A DNA stretch of 64,000 nucleotides, from the sequence record PZ386951.1. The stretch is one strand, 5' to 3'. The translations under genes and the position numbers were made by a program. The notes under the pieces are model-generated. The model was not told the origin of the DNA and searched no databases. It saw only the letters and a list, made by a program, of their open reading frames with translations. Position 1 is the first letter of the stretch. Every line of letters begins with the position of its first letter. The stretch is from a phage. Of the stretch, positions 16,652 through 64,000 are shown one piece after another.

Positions 16652-17398
16652 TTATCCTCGGATAAGTTTAAAAATTGAACAATTTAGCGGGTATCCTCTT
16701 TTCAGTTTAAGTTTATCAATAAATGATAAGTTTTGAAACCGCTCTACACCTTGAATAATTTTATCACACATATCATATTGCATTTCTGCTTCTGACAACT
16801 TTTTCACAATTTTCCAATCCGAACCTTTAAGAAGAACGTTCAGTTTAACAACTTCAGCGCCTTCTGCTATACGAGAACCATCAATACGAGCTTTAAGTGC
16901 TACAATAGTTAATTTAATATCAGCGGTTTGTTTTGATTTAGAAAGCTGAGAAATGTGTTCAATTCGATTTTCACGCTTTTTCTGTATAGCTTTAATTTGA
17001 TTATAAGTCTTTTTGATTTTAGCCCATTTCTTTTCATCTAAATTTAGTTTATGAACTTTTTTCGCAGATGAACGACCAATTCGCAAAGCAAATAAATCAC
17101 GCTTTTCAATCAACTCTTCTAAAGTATAATCAGAACGAAATGTATTATACTTTTTCTTTACTGCAATAACATTCCCTTTAATGTATCCAACGTTATTATC
17201 AAAACGTTCTAATGATAATTTCTCTCCTTCAATACGATTATCAAAAGGTTCTCCCGAGTAAGCACAAACTTTTTGATCTAAAATGTTCTTAATGTAATTG
17301 AAGTCTAAGTTAAAATCTTTAGAACGTCTTTGTGCAGATGCCTGAGTGTGCTCTAAACGACGTTTAATTTTACGAATTTGATTATTAGACAGTTTCAT
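16652..17398 (-). CDS. srd: Srd-like protein (248 aa)
   Basis: Size and position (between dda and modA) match T4 srd; sequence identity not verified. Confidence 0.55.
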   Translation of the reverse strand: MKLSNNQIRKIKRRLEHTQASAQRRSKDFNLDFNYIKNILDQKVCAYSGEPFDNRIEGEKLSLERFDNNVGYIKGNVIAVKKKYNTFRSDYTLEELIEKRDLFALRIGRSSAKKVHKLNLDEKKWAKIKKTYNQIKAIQKKRENRIEHISQLSKSKQTADIKLTIVALKARIDGSRIAEGAEVVKLNVLLKGSDWKIVKKLSEAEMQYDMCDKIIQGVERFQNLSFIDKLKLKRGYPLNCSIFKLIRG

Positions 17399-17523: not shown

Positions 17524-18126
17524 TTATAGATTAAATCCTTCAAAATCAAGAGTATAGATAGTGTATGCTGAATACTTTTTGTACTCATATCTATCTGCAA
17601 TTCTAAATACACTTCCAGCTGGTATCATTACTTCTTGTTCATCTGAAACTAATTCCATATTACGATAACGATGGCTATCCGGAAACTTAAAGTTTGGATT
17701 GTATTCTTTACAGCGTAGAGCTTTTATAGCATACTCCTGGAAATTGAATACCATAGGAGCTTTGAATTCAAAAATAACTTGTGTGTTATACTCTAAACCG
17801 GAAGCAAAATGTAGAGCTATATTTTTATCATATGAAGCTGATACGACTTTATCAAATGTAATAATATCAATTCCTTGATTTAATACTTGCTTAGTCTCAG
17901 CTGGAACACCTCTCCAAAGAGGTTTATCGTTTGGGACCAAACGAGATTTGATTATTTCATTTAACCAAGTATGGTCATCTGGCTTATTAGTAATACAATG
18001 AATTAAAAGTTCAATTTCAGATAAATTAAACCCTTCAGAAAGTAATTCTTCACGAATAGAAGCACGCACCGATGCATCCATTGATTTTATTTTAAAATCT
18101 TTTAGTTGCATTACTGAGTATTTCAT
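17524..18126 (-). CDS. modA: ModA ADP-ribosyltransferase
   Basis: 200-aa ORF, same length as T4 ModA, adjacent and coupled to the 207-aa ModB-sized ORF. Confidence 0.7.
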   Translation of the reverse strand: MKYSVMQLKDFKIKSMDASVRASIREELLSEGFNLSEIELLIHCITNKPDDHTWLNEIIKSRLVPNDKPLWRGVPAETKQVLNQGIDIITFDKVVSASYDKNIALHFASGLEYNTQVIFEFKAPMVFNFQEYAIKALRCKEYNPNFKFPDSHRYRNMELVSDEQEVMIPAGSVFRIADRYEYKKYSAYTIYTLDFEGFNL

Positions 18127-18746
18127 TCAACTACCTCAATATCATAAACTTTAAATGTTCCAAACGAATCGTGTAATTTTTCTTTTGAAATAGAAGTTAT
18201 TCTATACTTTCCAATTGGAATCATCCATTCTTGTTCACGCACAATCATCATTAAGTTATCAGTACGCTCTGAATCTAGCCCATCAGTATCTTCATACGTG
18301 TACTTGAACTCAGTATTAGGAGAAGAAAGTATAATATCGCTGATATGGTCAGAATAATTAAAAGCTTTATCAGTTTTTAAGCGAAATATTATTTCAGTGA
18401 AATACTCAACATAAGAAAAACCACATGCTGTGAGTAAACTAGTAGTAAATGAATCTACCCTGTTCGTTGAAAACACTTCTCCAACTTGTAAATCTTTAAT
18501 AAGTTCTTCTGTTGATTTTGATATACCACGATATAACTGATAAGGCGATTTAGTTAAATGCTTTTTAACGATTTTATTCAACTGCTGATGAAGAGCTTCA
18601 TTCTTTTTGGCTTCCATACATTGCCAAAGAATTGACTGTTCAAAGTCAGTAAATTTTTCACAGACCTTTTTATACATATCATATTGAAAATCAACACTTT
18701 CAGCTTTTATAGATAACTGTTCAACATCTGCAAGATTAATAATCAT
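18123..18746 (-). CDS. modB: ModB ADP-ribosyltransferase
   Basis: 207-aa ORF, same length as T4 ModB; 4-nt overlap with modA. Confidence 0.7.
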   Translation of the reverse strand: MIINLADVEQLSIKAESVDFQYDMYKKVCEKFTDFEQSILWQCMEAKKNEALHQQLNKIVKKHLTKSPYQLYRGISKSTEELIKDLQVGEVFSTNRVDSFTTSLLTACGFSYVEYFTEIIFRLKTDKAFNYSDHISDIILSSPNTEFKYTYEDTDGLDSERTDNLMMIVREQEWMIPIGKYRITSISKEKLHDSFGTFKVYDIEVVE

Positions 18747-23285: not shown

Positions 23286-23486
23286 ATGGTACAAAAATTA
23301 ATGGCACTTGTTAATGCCATAAAAGGTAATAAGAAACGTATAGCTTTTACTATTTCTGCTATGATAGGAATTTTACTTTGGAATTTTGTTTTATCGCCAG
23401 TTGCTATTGCTCATGGCGTTAGTATTCCAGTAGTTACTCTTGATACATTCGTAGATTTAGCATTTGCTTTAGTTGGGTTAATTTAA
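23286..23486 (+). CDS. small membrane protein (66 aa), plus strand
   Basis: Strong SD AAAGGAGG 5 nt before ATG; two hydrophobic segments; sits in a 290-bp gap between minus-strand genes. Confidence 0.4.
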   Translation: MVQKLMALVNAIKGNKKRIAFTISAMIGILLWNFVLSPVAIAHGVSIPVVTLDTFVDLAFALVGLI

Positions 23487-24511
23487 ATCTTAGCATATTT
23501 AGATAGCCGCATTTTAGCCATTAACCCCTGGGCAATATTATTTTTCATATATTCCATAATTTGTTCAGGGGTTGCACCTTCCTTTCTAATCATATCATTA
23601 ACATCTTTTGATTTCCAGGGAGATTTATCCCAAAACATAACCCTTTCTCCTGCATCAACTAATTTAGTCATTCGCTTAATAGTGTCAGGATGACGAGGTT
23701 CATTATCTAAAACCCACACACGTCTATCTTTAAATGGAACAACTTCTAGGTCTAATTGACCACCCGTAATAGCTATACCATTTTCAATAAAAAGTGAATC
23801 TATAGGTCCTTCTAGAACATATACATCACCATCTTTAACTCGTTCGACTCCATAGATTTTTGTTGCCTCAGGATAAGCTTTGATGGTGATATATTTTTGA
23901 GGAGCATCTTTCTTTAATGCACGCCCTTGAAAAGACTCAGCTTTTCCATTAGCATTATAAATTGGAATAACAAGACGAGGCTCAGAAATTTCCATTTTAT
24001 ATGTTCCCGGTGCTATGCTATTAACCAATTTAGGCCATTCGGTTGTAAACCAAAGATATTTCCATTTATCCTTTGGAATACAACGAGCTTTTACATATTT
24101 TATAATTGGATGGTCTTCCGCCAGTTTATCTAATCTAACACATGACGGAAGAGATTTAATTATTTTCTTCTCAAGTTGTTTAGGAAGTTCTTTAGGTTTT
24201 TCTACTGGACGACTTTTACCTTTTTCTTTTCTTATTTCAAAGATATACTCACGATATAAATCAGGTTCAAACTCCTTTAAATATATTCCGATTGGTGCAT
24301 GATAGTTACAGTTATAACAATGAATATTTCCTTCATTATTATCACCATAATACCATCCACGGGCTTTATTTTGGTCGGTTTTTGAATCTCCACACACTGG
24401 GCATCTAAACCGTAATTTAAAAGTTGAACTATTATTTACTTGTGTGAATTTAGGTAAATGAGCTAATGCACGGTATGCAAACTCATTATCAATCCAAGGT
24501 ATTGATGACAT
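23483..24511 (-). CDS. 61: DNA primase gp61
   Basis: 342-aa ORF, same length as T4 gp61; N-terminal zinc ribbon CPVCGDS...CYNC. Confidence 0.9.
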   Translation of the reverse strand: MSSIPWIDNEFAYRALAHLPKFTQVNNSSTFKLRFRCPVCGDSKTDQNKARGWYYGDNNEGNIHCYNCNYHAPIGIYLKEFEPDLYREYIFEIRKEKGKSRPVEKPKELPKQLEKKIIKSLPSCVRLDKLAEDHPIIKYVKARCIPKDKWKYLWFTTEWPKLVNSIAPGTYKMEISEPRLVIPIYNANGKAESFQGRALKKDAPQKYITIKAYPEATKIYGVERVKDGDVYVLEGPIDSLFIENGIAITGGQLDLEVVPFKDRRVWVLDNEPRHPDTIKRMTKLVDAGERVMFWDKSPWKSKDVNDMIRKEGATPEQIMEYMKNNIAQGLMAKMRLSKYAKI

Positions 24512-24513
24512 TT

Positions 24514-24678
24514 TTACTCTTCTTTTTCTTTAGATTCCTCTTTTTTCTTTTTAGGAATCTGTTCAGGACCTTTATTTACTACAGCGCCTGATGTTGTTCC
24601 AGTAGAGATATTTTCAGGACTACCACCTGAATCTCCAGCGACCATATCTTCTTTGATAAATTCTTTATATGTTTTCAT
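24514..24678 (-). CDS. hypothetical protein (54 aa), K/E-rich C-terminus
   Basis: MKTYKEFIKEDMVAGDSGGSPENIS...KKKKEESKEKEE; below track cut-off. Confidence 0.4.
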   Translation of the reverse strand: MKTYKEFIKEDMVAGDSGGSPENISTGTTSGAVVNKGPEQIPKKKKEESKEKEE

Positions 24679-24690
24679 ATTAGCCTCTAA

Positions 24691-24984
24691 TTATTCACCT
24701 ACCACTTCAGCGATGATATTTTTATTATTGAAGTTTTTATCACAATACAGAACGTAATTATACTGCATTACACCACCAGACTTAAGCTGTTTTTGTACTT
24801 CAGCTTTCATTTCAGGGCGATCACGCTCAACGATATTCATAATATCTGCTTCAATCTGAGTTTCAACCTCAGTCTGATCTGCAGTCATAGACCATTCGCA
24901 CAAATCTTTATCATAACCTGCCATAGCAGGCTGAGCAGCACAAGAAGCTAAAGCAAAAATTGCAGCAAAAACAAATTTTTTCAT
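24691..24984 (-). CDS. sp: Spackle-like periplasmic protein
   Basis: 97 aa with cleavable signal peptide MKKFVFAAIFALASCAAQPAMA; T4 Sp is 97 aa at this locus (identity from memory). Confidence 0.55.
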   Translation of the reverse strand: MKKFVFAAIFALASCAAQPAMAGYDKDLCEWSMTADQTEVETQIEADIMNIVERDRPEMKAEVQKQLKSGGVMQYNYVLYCDKNFNNKNIIAEVVGE

Positions 24985-25044
24985 GATAATCTCCTCAGTA
25001 GTTTATGTTTATATAGTATCTCAATTTCCAACAAAAGTAAACAG

Positions 25045-25302
25045 TTATTTTAAAACTTCTGCATAATCACATGTTACAAACTGTTTCTCTAGCTTGACGA
25101 TTTTACGAAAGTATCTTTTGCATTGACGAATCTGCCGCTTCGTAGGACGTACAGCAAACTTAATAAATTCCACTCGACCAAATGGAGGACTTTCTTCTGC
25201 TGGAATATCTAACACCAATTCCCACGTATCCGCAATAAGTGCCTTGAATTGAGTATTTTTCCTAACATTATACGGAGTAGGTTTAAATAAAACAATATGC
25301 AT
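25045..25302 (-). CDS. hypothetical protein (85 aa)
   Basis: Minus ORF with ATG start between sp and dmd. Confidence 0.5.
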   Translation of the reverse strand: MHIVLFKPTPYNVRKNTQFKALIADTWELVLDIPAEESPPFGRVEFIKFAVRPTKRQIRQCKRYFRKIVKLEKQFVTCDYAEVLK

Positions 25303-25303
25303 A

Positions 25304-25486
25304 TTATCCTCGGCAATCTACTTCATATACTTTCTTGTCATCAATGAAAGCTTTAACTAATGCTTTATTAACTTCAGCATATTGCGTAGTAGCCCATTGA
25401 ACGTCATCTTTCATCATTGTGATTTCTTTAGTAAACATGCTTTCATTCTTAAACCACCCCATAAAAACTACCTTTACCAATTCCAT
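25304..25486 (-). CDS. dmd: Dmd (antitoxin against host RnlA/LsoA)
   Basis: 60-aa ORF MELVKVVFMGWFKNESMFTKEI... matches recalled T4 Dmd length and position next to gene 41. Confidence 0.75.
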   Translation of the reverse strand: MELVKVVFMGWFKNESMFTKEITMMKDDVQWATTQYAEVNKALVKAFIDDKKVYEVDCRG

Positions 25487-62307: not shown

Positions 62308-62889
62308 CTAACCGAGCTTTTTAGTTAATTCATTCCAATGTTTTCTACACAAAGAAACATAAATTTCATCACCAATACAGATTTGATTACCTTCTTTAAC
62401 GGGTGTTCCATCTTCCATTAATCGAGCTGTCATAATCGCTTTTTTTCCGCAATGACAAACTGCCTTCAGTTCAATAAGTTTATCTGCAATCGCTAAAAGT
62501 TCTTTAGAACCTTCAAATAATTTTCCGGCGAAATCAGTCCTTAATCCATAAGCCATAACAGGAACATTATATGTATCAACAATTCGGCTCAATTGATGCA
62601 CTTGTTCAGTTTTTAAAAACTGAGCTTCATCTACAAATACGCAATGAATATCTTTTTGTGCTTCAGCCCATTTATAGAACTCGAAAATATCCATATCATC
62701 TGTAATAATATTCGCTTCCTGTTTAATTCCAATGCGAGAAACAACTTCACAGACAGAATCGCGAGTATCAATAGCAGGCTTAAGAACTAATACACTCATT
62801 CCACGCTCTTTATAATTATGAGCAGCAGTCAAAAGAGAAGCAGATTTTCCAGCATTCATTGCTGCATAAGTAAAAATTAAACTCGCCAT
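62308..62889 (-). CDS. tk: thymidine kinase
   Basis: 193-aa ORF, same length as T4 Tk; P-loop AAMNAGKS; C-terminal zinc cysteines. Confidence 0.92.
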   Translation of the reverse strand: MASLIFTYAAMNAGKSASLLTAAHNYKERGMSVLVLKPAIDTRDSVCEVVSRIGIKQEANIITDDMDIFEFYKWAEAQKDIHCVFVDEAQFLKTEQVHQLSRIVDTYNVPVMAYGLRTDFAGKLFEGSKELLAIADKLIELKAVCHCGKKAIMTARLMEDGTPVKEGNQICIGDEIYVSLCRKHWNELTKKLG

Positions 62890-62898
62890 ATCACCTTC

Positions 62899-63084
62899 TT
62901 AAAGCGTATTCACATAAGCTATTAATTCATTTTCTTTCTTATCAAACCGATCAGCAAATTCTTCCTGCTGTTCGGGAGATAGCGGGCCGTATTCATCATA
63001 AAAGGTGTTTGCTTCTGTATGCTCATCTAGAAGTTCATGGATAAGCTCAAACAATTTATCTTTTTGTTCTTTACTCAGACTCAT
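62899..63084 (-). CDS. hypothetical acidic protein (about 61 aa)
   Basis: Start at ATG overlapping upstream stop (track start TTG). Confidence 0.45.
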   Translation of the reverse strand: MSLSKEQKDKLFELIHELLDEHTEANTFYDEYGPLSPEQQEEFADRFDKKENELIAYVNTL

Positions 63085-63293
63085 AACCATGTCACCTTTA
63101 AGCAATATTCTTCTACATGTTGTTTACGACCTTTCTTATCAATAAAGGTATATTCAACGAATGTTCCAATGTAGTCTTTATCTACATCATGTGGACTATT
63201 AATTGGACATTTAGTACGGCAAATGCGTTCCCATTGACGAATAATTACTGCTTTGTTTTTAGGATCAAACGGATGTGGGTAATGTACTTTCAT
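63081..63293 (-). CDS. hypothetical protein (70 aa)
   Basis: Minus ORF with ATG start. Confidence 0.5.
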   Translation of the reverse strand: MKVHYPHPFDPKNKAVIIRQWERICRTKCPINSPHDVDKDYIGTFVEYTFIDKKGRKQHVEEYCLKVTWL

Positions 63294-63744
63294 AATCCAC
63301 CACTATTAAATCAATATCAGGAGTAAACATGTCGATTAATTTAGAAACCTTATCCCAATCACCGCCAGCAATACCACAACCTATGCGTGGAATGTAAATT
63401 ACCGGTTTAAACAAAAGGGTTTCTGCCTGTAGATTTAATTCTATCATGCAGTTTACTAAAGCACCATAATCAAGATTAGGACCTGGTTCGTATTGCGTAT
63501 ACAAGTTATAACATATGCCAAAACCATTAGGTTTATGTTTAAAAACAATAGACATATCGCCTAATTTATCACGAGAACCGTACTCAGTAGTGGTTTTATC
63601 TATTTCTAAAATTTTGGGATAGGCTCTTGCTAATTGACCCGCTACACCTGAACCCATAGTATGAAAACAATTGCACCCGTGCGCAATAATATTACCTTCA
63701 AGAAAGAGGGCGACAATATCGCCCTTGATATATTTTACAATCAT
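63265..63744 (-). CDS. macro-domain-like protein (candidate ADP-ribose binding / hydrolase)
   Basis: 159 aa; YIKGDIV...IAHGCNCFHTMGSGVAGQLARAYP resembles the macro-domain GDI[TV]...NAAN...GGGVAGAI signature. Confidence 0.55.
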   Translation of the reverse strand: MIVKYIKGDIVALFLEGNIIAHGCNCFHTMGSGVAGQLARAYPKILEIDKTTTEYGSRDKLGDMSIVFKHKPNGFGICYNLYTQYEPGPNLDYGALVNCMIELNLQAETLLFKPVIYIPRIGCGIAGGDWDKVSKLIDMFTPDIDLIVVDYESTLPTSV

Positions 63745-64000
63745 CTAGTACTCAATCCTCGATTATAAGAATCTACCAAACGGTCAACCATTGAATGACA
63801 AGCGGCTTTATCTTTCTCCTCCGCAACTGAACATTCTAAAGTATTCCACTTTTTAGCATATCGTTTTAATAATGTATCGTTTTTGTATCTGCTTGATTTA
63901 TCTCTTTCTCCGTCTTTATATGCATATATTAATTTCTGTGCAAATTCAGCTTGGCATGCTTTATTTTTCCCACAATAATCTGCCGCAGTGCGGTTTACAT
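63741..64000 (-). CDS. hypothetical protein, 5' end cut by window edge
   Basis: Open minus-strand frame ending with TGA at 63741-63743 (ATGA overlap with next gene); N-terminus outside window. Confidence 0.45.
   Translation of the reverse strand, partial: VNRTAADYCGKNKACQAEFAQKLIYAYKDGERDKSSRYKNDTLLKRYAKKWNTLECSVAEEKDKAACHSMVDRLVDSYNRGLSTR

What the first reader, a model, noticed from the sequence alone, without database searches (positions are those of the whole stretch)
63265..63744. Macro-domain-like protein downstream of tk
The 159-aa ORF has YIKGDIV near the N-terminus and IAHGCNCFHTMGSGVAGQLARAYP, which parallels the macro-domain signature for ADP-ribose binding/hydrolysis. T-even phages encode ADP-ribosyltransferases (modA and modB are in this window), and bacterial defence systems use ADP-ribosylation or NAD-derived signals, so a phage macro domain could reverse or sense such marks.
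Basis: partly seen in the sequence, partly recalled or inferred. Interest (0 to 1): 0.5.

Follow-up and report, generated by a model that had tools for sequence, protein, structure and literature searches.

The report
Phage T4-type macrodomain gene tk.4 (AdfM)
This is a real and well-conserved macrodomain (ADP-ribose-removing) gene of a T4-like phage, the counterpart of T4 tk.4, which was recently shown to protect T4 from the bacterial DarTG2 defence, so the call is correct but it is already known.

Summary

The window is a Tequatrovirus. The ORF sits between tk.3 and vs, which makes it the positional orthologue of T4 tk.4. GenBank records already call this protein "macro domain protein" or "phosphatase". 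A 2025 preprint names T4 tk.4 AdfM, because deleting it sensitises T4 to DarTG2.

Two points may be new, as I found neither stated in the papers I read:
- The family has an invariant Gln84 where DarG and TARG1 have their catalytic lysine. That matches the thymidine-ADP-ribose DNA hydrolase SCO6735. It is therefore not a captured DarG, unlike PhiKZ AdfM.
- This allele is only 58% identical to T4 Tk.4, although the flanking genes are 96-100% identical. The gene has been swapped as a cassette.

Most likely function: removal of DarT2-added ADP-ribose from thymidines in phage ssDNA. No biochemistry exists for either T-even allele. Novelty: already known. Interest is low.

The parts
63265..63744 (-). 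tk.4 / adfM-type macrodomain CDS (159 aa, stop codon included). Family-invariant residues are H22 G23 N25 C26 G33 A35 D49 N80 Y82 Q84 P119 G122 G124 W130. The ADP-ribose-binding loops are G31-S-G-V-A35 and G122-C-G-I-A-G-G128.
63290..63710 (-). Divergent allelic cassette. Nucleotide identity to T4 falls to 30-80% here (90% in one bin, 63650-63679) and is 97-100% on both sides, apart from 77-93% transition bins at 63200-63289. Over the 465 nt of the CDS aligned with T4, nucleotide identity is 63% and amino-acid identity 58%.
63756..63760 (-). GAGGA Shine-Dalgarno-like motif 11 nt upstream of the ATG, lying inside the 3' end of vs.
   Evidence: read directly from the sequence
63741..64000 (-). 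3' part of vs (valyl-tRNA synthetase modifier), cut off by the window end. It is 100% aa identical to T4 Vs residues 31-115. Its stop overlaps the tk.4 start (ATGA), as in the T4 annotation.
63081..63293 (-). tk.3 homologue (70 aa, 95.7% identical to T4 Tk.3). It overlaps the 3' end of tk.4 by 29 nt.
62902..63084 (-). tk.2-like small ORF (61 aa; 54% identical to T4 Tk.2, 100% to slur02 gp212).
62308..62889 (-). tk, thymidine kinase (99.5% identical to T4 Tk), transcribed after tk.4.
63707..63725 (-). 8-bp G+C-rich hairpin followed by a U-rich tract, inside codons 7-13 of tk.4 and within the stretch that is 100% identical to T4. The equivalent position is annotated as a predicted rho-independent terminator in another phage record. 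Its function is unknown.

Best explanation
The ORF is the tk.4 / adfM gene of a T4-like coliphage. It encodes a stand-alone macrodomain ADP-ribosylglycohydrolase of the ALC1/TARG1-like class, in an early-region gene run (vs > tk.4 > tk.3 > tk.2 > tk). The proposed mechanism has four steps. (1) On infection of a DarTG2-carrying host, the DarT2 toxin ADP-ribosylates thymidines in single-stranded phage DNA and blocks replication. (2) The macrodomain binds the ADP-ribose through its two glycine-rich loops (G31-A35 and G122-G128). (3) It hydrolyses the thymine-ribose bond using the Gln-type active site described for SCO6735, rather than the catalytic lysine of DarG and TARG1. In that active site, Gln84 is held by Asn25 and positions the distal ribose, and a backbone-held water acts. 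(4) This releases free ADP-ribose and restores the DNA. What is shown here: the gene, the fold, the class, the active-site residue pattern, and synteny with T4 tk.4. What is shown by others: T4 tk.4 is needed on DarTG2 hosts (genetics only); SCO6735, which has the same Gln, cleaves thymidine-linked ADP-ribose from DNA and rescues DarT toxicity; PhiKZ AdfM, a distant macrodomain, does the same. What is inferred: that this 58%-identical allele has the same phenotype, and that either T-even allele acts catalytically on DNA.
For: Fold and class. Orthology: the ORF lies between tk.3 and vs as T4 tk.4 does, with 58% identity over the full length and E=4e-70. All 14 residues invariant in an alignment of the window ORF, T4 Tk.4 and 57 homologues down to 39% identity are therefore present in both T-even alleles. 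Active site: in the profile alignment to TARG1, family T83-Q84 pairs with TARG1 T83-K84 (LYTQ against LITK), and A126 pairs with D125. BT1257 also has Gln at this column. PMC9411070 reports that SCO6735 Gln85 is the structural equivalent of DarG K80 and TARG1 K84, that Q85A is inactive and N27S nearly so, and that the enzyme removes thymidine-linked ADP-ribose from DNA and rescues E. coli from DarT. Genetics in T4. Biochemical precedent for a phage macrodomain reversing DarT2 marks: PMC13309987. Purifying selection: dN/dS 0.29. The acidic pI (5.07) is no objection, because the proven DNA hydrolase PhiKZ AdfM has pI 5.05.
Against: No biochemical assay exists for any T-even Tk.4, and the T4 evidence is a preprint with genetics only. 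This allele differs from the tested one at 42% of positions, including the diphosphate loop (GCGIAGGDW here, GAGIGKGNW in T4). The protein scores only 28 bits against DarG models, where PhiKZ AdfM scores 133-138, so similarity to DarG alone would not predict the substrate. The equivalence to SCO6735 residues is established by transitivity through TARG1 and BT1257, not by a direct alignment that I could print. The long-standing database label (A1pp / Poa1p-like phosphatase) points to a small-molecule substrate instead.
Confidence: 0.7

Rival explanations
1. It is a small-molecule ADP-ribose derivative hydrolase, as the historical annotation says: a Poa1p-like ADP-ribose-1''-phosphate phosphatase and/or O-acetyl-ADP-ribose deacetylase. 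It would clear NAD-derived metabolites or toxic or signalling ADP-ribose derivatives during infection.
Against: The label comes from homology only. The one genetic phenotype known for the T4 gene is specific to DarTG2, a DNA-modifying system. The nearest characterised protein with the same Gln active site acts on DNA and protein substrates.
Confidence: 0.1
2. It neutralises DarT2 mainly by binding the toxin (interaction-inhibition), with hydrolysis secondary or dispensable.
For: Catalytically dead SCO6735 Q85A, DarG K80A and TARG1 K84A all inhibit DarT in vitro, and SCO6735 does so most strongly (PMC9411070). Cassette-like allele replacement at this locus is the pattern expected for a protein co-evolving with a variable binding partner.
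Against: The active-site residues H22, N25 and Q84 and both Gly loops are invariant across homologues down to 39% identity, which argues that catalysis is under selection. The protein lacks the C-terminal DarT-binding domain of DarG; it is 159 aa and matches only positions 3-144 of the 329-position DarG model.
Confidence: 0.08
3. Its main substrates are ADP-ribosylated RNA bases or other nucleic-acid marks made by toxins other than DarT2. The DarTG2 phenotype would be one facet of a broader eraser.
For: TARG1, DarG and SCO6735 also reverse uracil-linked ADP-ribosylation of ssRNA (PMC13036486). T-even phages meet RNA-targeting ADP-ribosyltransferase defences such as CmdTAC.
Against: CmdT's adenine modification is described as irreversible so far. 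CmdTAC defends robustly against wild-type T4, which carries tk.4, so tk.4 does not neutralise it. SCO6735 is inactive on 2'-OH ADP-ribosylated RNA, and its activity on phosphate-linked marks is reported inconsistently within PMC11833690 (inactive in the results section, active in the discussion).
Confidence: 0.07
4. It reverses or tunes the phage's own ADP-ribosylation by Alt, ModA or ModB (protein Arg-ADP-ribose or RNAylation).
For: modA and modB are in the same genome. Both they and tk.4 lie in early regions.
Against: There is no linkage: the genes are about 45 kb apart. No genetic evidence exists. By established knowledge, arginine-linked ADP-ribose is normally removed by ARH/DraG-type enzymes, and only a specialised macrodomain clade (MavL) does so; that is not the ALC1/TARG1-like class found here. 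Homologues also occur in many phage groups outside the T4-like phages, such as Pseudomonas pakpunaviruses and Erwinia phages; I did not check whether those carry Mod/Alt.
Confidence: 0.03
5. It is a non-catalytic binder, sponge or sensor of ADP-ribose-derived immune signals (for example Thoeris gcADPR).
For: Some macrodomains are readers only. A macro domain in ThsA binds Thoeris signals, and the ThsA macro domain is a detectable structural neighbour.
Confidence: 0.02

Closest known systems
T4 Tk.4 = AdfM (anti-DarT factor Macrodomain), bioRxiv 10.1101/2025.11.20.689424
   Same: Same locus between tk.3 and vs, and the same length class (159 aa against 155). Identity is 58% over the full length with no gaps. 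The first 14 residues are identical, and all family-invariant residues are shared, including H22, N25 and Q84.
   Different: 42% of residues differ, although the flanking genes are 96-100% identical, so this is a separate allele class. The window-type allele occurs at 90% identity or more in 319 phage records; the T4 type occurs at 90% or more in 224, plus 159 at 80-90%. Only the T4 allele has been tested, and only genetically.
SCO6735 (Streptomyces coelicolor) and BT1257 (Bacteroides thetaiotaomicron): orphan Gln-type ALC1/TARG1-like macrodomains
   Different: These are cellular proteins at only about 25-29% identity. The DNA-binding lysines reported for SCO6735 (K34, K89) have no obvious counterparts here (tentative offset mapping). 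SCO6735 Val25 corresponds to an invariant Gly23. BT1257 has no known function.
DarG antitoxin macrodomain (M. tuberculosis 5M3I, T. aquaticus 5M31/5M3E)
   Different: It has Gln in place of the catalytic Lys80, no C-terminal DarT-binding domain, no adjacent darT, and scores 27.8 bits against the 250-bit NCBIfam cut-off.
PhiKZ gp104 AdfM (Cell Rep 2026, PMC13309987)
   Same: A phage-encoded orphan macrodomain with the same name and the same role against DarTG2. Its removal of ADP-ribose from DarT2-modified DNA is proven.
   Different: It belongs to a different lineage. PhiKZ AdfM keeps the DarG-type P-T-K lysine motif and scores 133-138 bits on DarG models, against 28 bits here. Identity to this family is 22%. 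Two papers gave the name AdfM independently to non-orthologous proteins.
Human TARG1 (OARD1/C6orf130)
   Same: Top Foldseek hit (E=2.4e-10, TM 0.72-0.82). It also removes thymidine-linked ADP-ribose from DNA.
   Different: The TARG1 catalytic dyad K84/D125 is replaced by Q84/A126.
Yeast Poa1p (ADP-ribose-1''-phosphate phosphatase)
   Different: It is a eukaryotic enzyme of tRNA-splicing by-product metabolism, about 24% identical. No evidence links the phage protein to that substrate.

Membership tests
Macro domain superfamily (Pfam PF01661) | Sequence score above the curated gathering threshold across the whole domain | tested here: met
   33.1 bits against a cut-off of 22, profile positions 2-117 of 118
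Macro domain superfamily (Pfam PF01661) | Three-layer alpha/beta macro fold | tested here: met
Macro domain superfamily (Pfam PF01661) | Glycine-rich ADP-ribose/diphosphate-binding loops (GxG after strand 2; G-x-G...G-G before the last helix) | tested here: met
   G31-S-G33-V-A35 and G122-C-G124-I-A-G-G128. G33, G122 and G124 are invariant in 58 of 58 homologues.
Macro domain superfamily (Pfam PF01661) | Binds ADP-ribose | not testable with these tools
   Needs ITC, a thermal-shift assay or a co-crystal
ALC1/TARG1-like macrodomain class (TARG1, DarG, SCO6735, BT1257, Poa1p) | Closest structural and sequence neighbours are members of this class, clearly separated from the MacroD, PARG and viral Mac1 classes | tested here: met
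DarG antitoxin (NCBIfam NF048014 equivalog; PADLOC DarG) | Score above the equivalog cut-off | tested here: not met
   27.8 bits against a cut-off of 250; 27.7 bits on the PADLOC DarG model
DarG antitoxin (NCBIfam NF048014 equivalog; PADLOC DarG) | Catalytic lysine (Taq/Mtb DarG K80) | tested here: not met
   An invariant Gln84 occupies the column that aligns with TARG1 K84. PMC9411070 equates TARG1 K84, DarG K80 and SCO6735 Q85.
DarG antitoxin (NCBIfam NF048014 equivalog; PADLOC DarG) | C-terminal DarT-binding domain and an adjacent darT gene | tested here: not met
   The protein is 159 aa and matches only positions 3-144 of the 329-position model. Its neighbours are vs and tk.3.
TARG1-type hydrolase | Lys84/Asp125 catalytic dyad | tested here: not met
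   Q84 and A126 occupy the aligned columns
SCO6735/BT1257-like Gln-type macrodomains | Gln at the catalytic-lysine position, held by the conserved Asn, with His two residues before the backbone-water residue | tested here: met
   H22, N25 and Q84 are invariant in 58 of 58. BT1257 has Gln in the same column. The roles of SCO6735 H24, N27 and Q85 come from PMC9411070. Equivalence to SCO6735 is by transitivity, not by a printed direct alignment.
SCO6735/BT1257-like Gln-type macrodomains | Hydrolysis of thymidine-linked ADP-ribose on ssDNA | not testable with these tools
   Needs a gel-shift or AMP-Glo assay on a DarT2-modified oligonucleotide
T-even Tk.4 / AdfM orthologue group | Conserved position between tk.3 and vs, and full-length homology to T4 Tk.4 | tested here: met
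   Synteny; 58% identity, E=4e-70, no gaps
T-even Tk.4 / AdfM orthologue group | Required for growth on DarTG2-expressing hosts | not testable with these tools
   Shown only for the T4 allele
PhiKZ-type AdfM (DarG2-like phage macrodomain) | Close DarG-macrodomain homology with the catalytic P-T-K lysine | tested here: not met
   PhiKZ gp104 scores 133-138 bits on DarG models, against 28 bits here. hhalign gives 96% probability but 22% identity. The motif is FPTK in gp104 and LYTQ here.
Poa1p-like ADP-ribose-1''-phosphate phosphatase | Appr1p phosphatase activity | not testable with these tools
   Only motif and fold similarity is available. H22 aligns with Poa1p H23, which was mutated in PDB 6LFS.

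The most novel reading that the evidence does not exclude
The T-even 'AdfM' is not a captured DarG antitoxin. It is a Gln-type (SCO6735/BT1257-like) macrodomain with a lysine-independent mechanism. Its deeply diverged alleles (58% aa) are exchanged as cassettes between otherwise near-identical genomes. On this reading the alleles differ functionally, for example in which DarT2 variants or which ADP-ribosylated bases (T in DNA, U in RNA) they counter, or in evading a host factor that targets the macrodomain.
Probability: 0.15. Interest if true: 0.5.

Novelty: already known. Interest (0 to 1): 0.15.

Why it matters
The gene adds to the picture that T-even phages carry a set of erasers and inhibitors against DNA ADP-ribosylating defences: AdfA and AdfN against DarT1, and AdfM against DarT2. 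In practice, this window's allele is the commoner one among sequenced T4-like coliphages but is untested. Its presence would predict resistance of such phages, including therapeutic candidates, to DarTG2-bearing E. coli. The Gln-for-Lys active site means inhibitors or mechanistic models built on DarG K80 may not transfer. None of this changes the field, because the family, the fold and the likely role are already in the literature and in GenBank annotation.

Tried and rejected
I re-ran it without that sequence.
2. I could not print a direct residue-level alignment to DarG or SCO6735, because the PDB sequence tool shows only the top five hits. The Gln/Lys equivalence therefore rests on the TARG1 and BT1257 alignments plus the structure-based statement in PMC9411070.
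3. The hhalign alignment to PhiKZ gp104 is unreliable around the catalytic motif (register shifted, no confidence marks), so I did not use it for residue equivalence.
4. The sigma-70 promoter scan found no more sites than shuffled sequence does (6 against 8.1 expected), so I make no promoter claim.
5. The hairpin at the start of the CDS is not significantly more stable than shuffles (z = -1.2). I list it only as a passing note.
6. I looked for a DarT partner next to one bacterial homologue (Pelagimonas phthalicica, P0095) and found none, so that copy is an orphan. I did not run a systematic survey of bacterial contexts.
7. The CmdTAC paper contains nothing on a T4 macrodomain reversing CmdT.
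8. Full-text searches found no paper with biochemistry on T4 Tk.4.
9. An acidic pI as an argument against DNA binding was rejected, because PhiKZ AdfM is equally acidic.

Full report
**Observation.** The ORF listing finds a 159-aa ATG ORF at 63265..63744 on the minus strand. A GAGGA motif lies 11 nt upstream of the ATG, and the ATG overlaps the stop of the preceding gene as ATGA. Because the gene is on the minus strand at higher coordinates than tk (62308..62889, minus), it is transcribed before tk. The title's 'downstream of tk' holds only in plus-strand coordinates.

**It is a real gene and a real macrodomain.**
- Pfam Macro (PF01661) matches at 33.1 bits against a curated cut-off of 22, across profile positions 2-117 of 118.
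- PHROG 335 matches at E=1.6e-71.
- tblastn finds homologues in 2774 of 50,697 phage records.
- dN/dS against the T4 allele is 0.29, with third codon positions the most diverged.
- An AlphaFold2 model built on 58 homologues has mean pLDDT 94.4 and pTM 0.89.
- Foldseek against the PDB returns TARG1, BT1257, Poa1p, DarG and SCO6735, all at probability 1.0 and TM about 0.7-0.8.

The protein therefore belongs to the ALC1/TARG1-like class of macrodomains.

**What the locus is.** The window is a Tequatrovirus. It is 98.6% identical over 2 kb to phages slur02 and slur04, and 97.2% identical over 24 kb to Shigella phage Phaginator. The ORF product is 100% identical to one encoded by phage IME340. The gene order here is vs > this ORF > tk.3 > tk.2-like > tk, the same as in T4, where the gene between vs and tk.3 is tk.4. 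T4 tk.4 is annotated 'phosphatase; contains A1pp phosphatase motif'. Near-identical proteins in other records are annotated 'macro domain protein', 'Poa1p-like family protein' or 'phosphatase'. The macrodomain identification is thus already in public annotation.

**What is known about function.** A November 2025 preprint (10.1101/2025.11.20.689424) screened a T4 transposon library on E. coli expressing DarTG2. It found tk.4 as the single significant hit, and a clean knock-out sensitised T4 to DarTG2. The authors renamed the gene adfM and proposed that it removes DarT2's ADP-ribose from DNA. No enzymology was reported. Independently, a 2026 Cell Reports paper (PMC13309987) used the same name for PhiKZ gp104. 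That paper showed biochemically that gp104 removes ADP-ribose from DarT2-modified DNA and that an active-site Asn mutation reduces this activity. Full-text searches found no other work on Tk.4.

**Addition 1: the active site.** I did not find this point stated in the papers I read. In an alignment of the window ORF, T4 Tk.4 and 57 homologues reaching down to 39% identity, H22, G23, N25, C26, G33, A35, D49, N80, Y82, Q84, P119, G122, G124 and W130 are invariant.
- In the profile alignment to human TARG1, family L-Y-T-Q pairs with TARG1 L-I-T-K. Gln84 therefore sits at the catalytic Lys84 position, and Ala126 sits at the TARG1 Asp125 position.
- PMC9411070 reports from structural superposition that SCO6735 Gln85 is the equivalent of TARG1 K84 and DarG K80. 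It also reports that Q85A is dead and N27S nearly dead, and that SCO6735 cleaves thymidine-linked ADP-ribose from DNA and rescues E. coli from DarT. The proposed mechanism is lysine-independent and uses a backbone-positioned water.
- The T-even Tk.4 family has this His/Asn/Gln pattern.
- PhiKZ AdfM, by contrast, keeps the DarG-type F-P-T-K lysine motif. It scores 133-138 bits on the PADLOC and NCBIfam DarG models, where T4 Tk.4 scores 30-36 bits and this ORF 28 bits. hhalign gives 22% identity between the two families.

So the two proteins called AdfM are not orthologues. The T-even one is better described as an orphan SCO6735/BT1257-like enzyme than as a captured DarG. It fails every DarG membership test I could run: score, catalytic lysine, C-terminal domain and adjacency to darT. 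It still most probably works on the same substrate.

**Addition 2: the allele.** I did not find this point stated in the papers I read either. The protein is only 58% identical to T4 Tk.4. The flanking products are 99.5% (Tk), 95.7% (Tk.3) and 100% (Vs) identical. In 30-nt bins, nucleotide identity to T4 is 97-100% outside the gene. It falls to 30-80% (90% in one bin) across 63290-63710, with 77-93% transition bins at 63200-63289, and returns to 100% for the first 35 nt or so of the CDS and all of vs. This is a cassette-like allelic replacement. The window-type allele (90% identity or more) is in 319 phage records, with 122 more at 60-80%. The T4-type is in 224 at 90% or more, with 159 at 80-90%. 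Several allele classes therefore circulate in T4-like phages, and the experimentally tested one is not the commonest. All invariant residues are shared, so I infer that function is conserved. The diphosphate loop does differ (GCGIAGGDW here, GAGIGKGNW in T4), and nothing has been tested for this allele.

**Mechanism and rivals.** The best-supported reading (confidence 0.7) is a catalytic eraser of DarT2's thymidine-ADP-ribose on phage ssDNA, with a Gln-type active site. The rivals are:
- a small-molecule Appr1p or OAADPr hydrolase, which is the historical label and rests on homology only;
- stoichiometric inhibition of DarT2, which has an SCO6735 precedent but is opposed by the invariant catalytic residues;
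- broader nucleic-acid erasure such as U-ADPr on RNA (TARG1, DarG and SCO6735 all do this);
- reversal of the phage's own Mod/Alt marks, for which there is no evidence;

One bacterial homologue I examined (Pelagimonas) is an orphan among housekeeping genes with no DarT nearby. That fits an origin from stand-alone protective hydrolases.

**Verdict.** Residual interest lies in the lysine-independent active site and in the untested, cassette-swapped allele.

Noticed in passing
window 24514-24984 (region 23483-25486): T4 gene 61.2 (adfA, the anti-DarT1 factor) is absent. Gene 61.1 (24514-24678, -) is followed directly by sp (24691-24984, -), then 61.4 and dmd. tblastn with T4 gp61.2 finds nothing in the window at E<=1e-3. 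This phage therefore lacks one of the known anti-DarT factors while keeping the tk.4 macrodomain.
   Followed up: partly
window 63707-63725 (-): There is an 8-bp G+C-rich hairpin (AGGGCGAUAUUGUCGCCCU) followed by CUUUCUU inside codons 7-13 of tk.4. It lies in the short 5' stretch that is 100% identical to T4 even though the rest of the gene is diverged. The equivalent site is annotated as a predicted rho-independent terminator in OL631480. The fold of the surrounding 71 nt is not significantly better than shuffles (z=-1.2).
   Followed up: partly
window 62890-63084: The small-ORF content between tk and tk.3 is variable. The window has one tk.2-like ORF (62902-63084, 54% identical to T4 Tk.2). 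It has no T4 tk.1 homologue and lacks two small ORFs present in slur02 (gp213, gp214), which accounts for the roughly 373-bp length difference seen in the megablast hits.
   Followed up: partly
window 17527-18746 (-): modA (17527-18126) and modB (18126-18746) are present, abutting, and mutually about 29-30% identical paralogues, as in T4. srd lies just downstream at 16655-17398.
   Followed up: yes
literature (PMC13309987 and bioRxiv 10.1101/2025.11.20.689424): Two groups gave the name AdfM independently to non-orthologous macrodomains. PhiKZ gp104 is the DarG-like Lys type (133-138 bits on DarG models). T4 Tk.4 is the Gln type (30-36 bits). This invites annotation confusion.
   Followed up: yes
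L005 6001-6459 (Pelagimonas phthalicica chromosome): A 40%-identical bacterial homologue sits alone among housekeeping genes (peptidase M23, Trp halogenase, peptidase U32), with no DarT or other transferase nearby.
   Followed up: no
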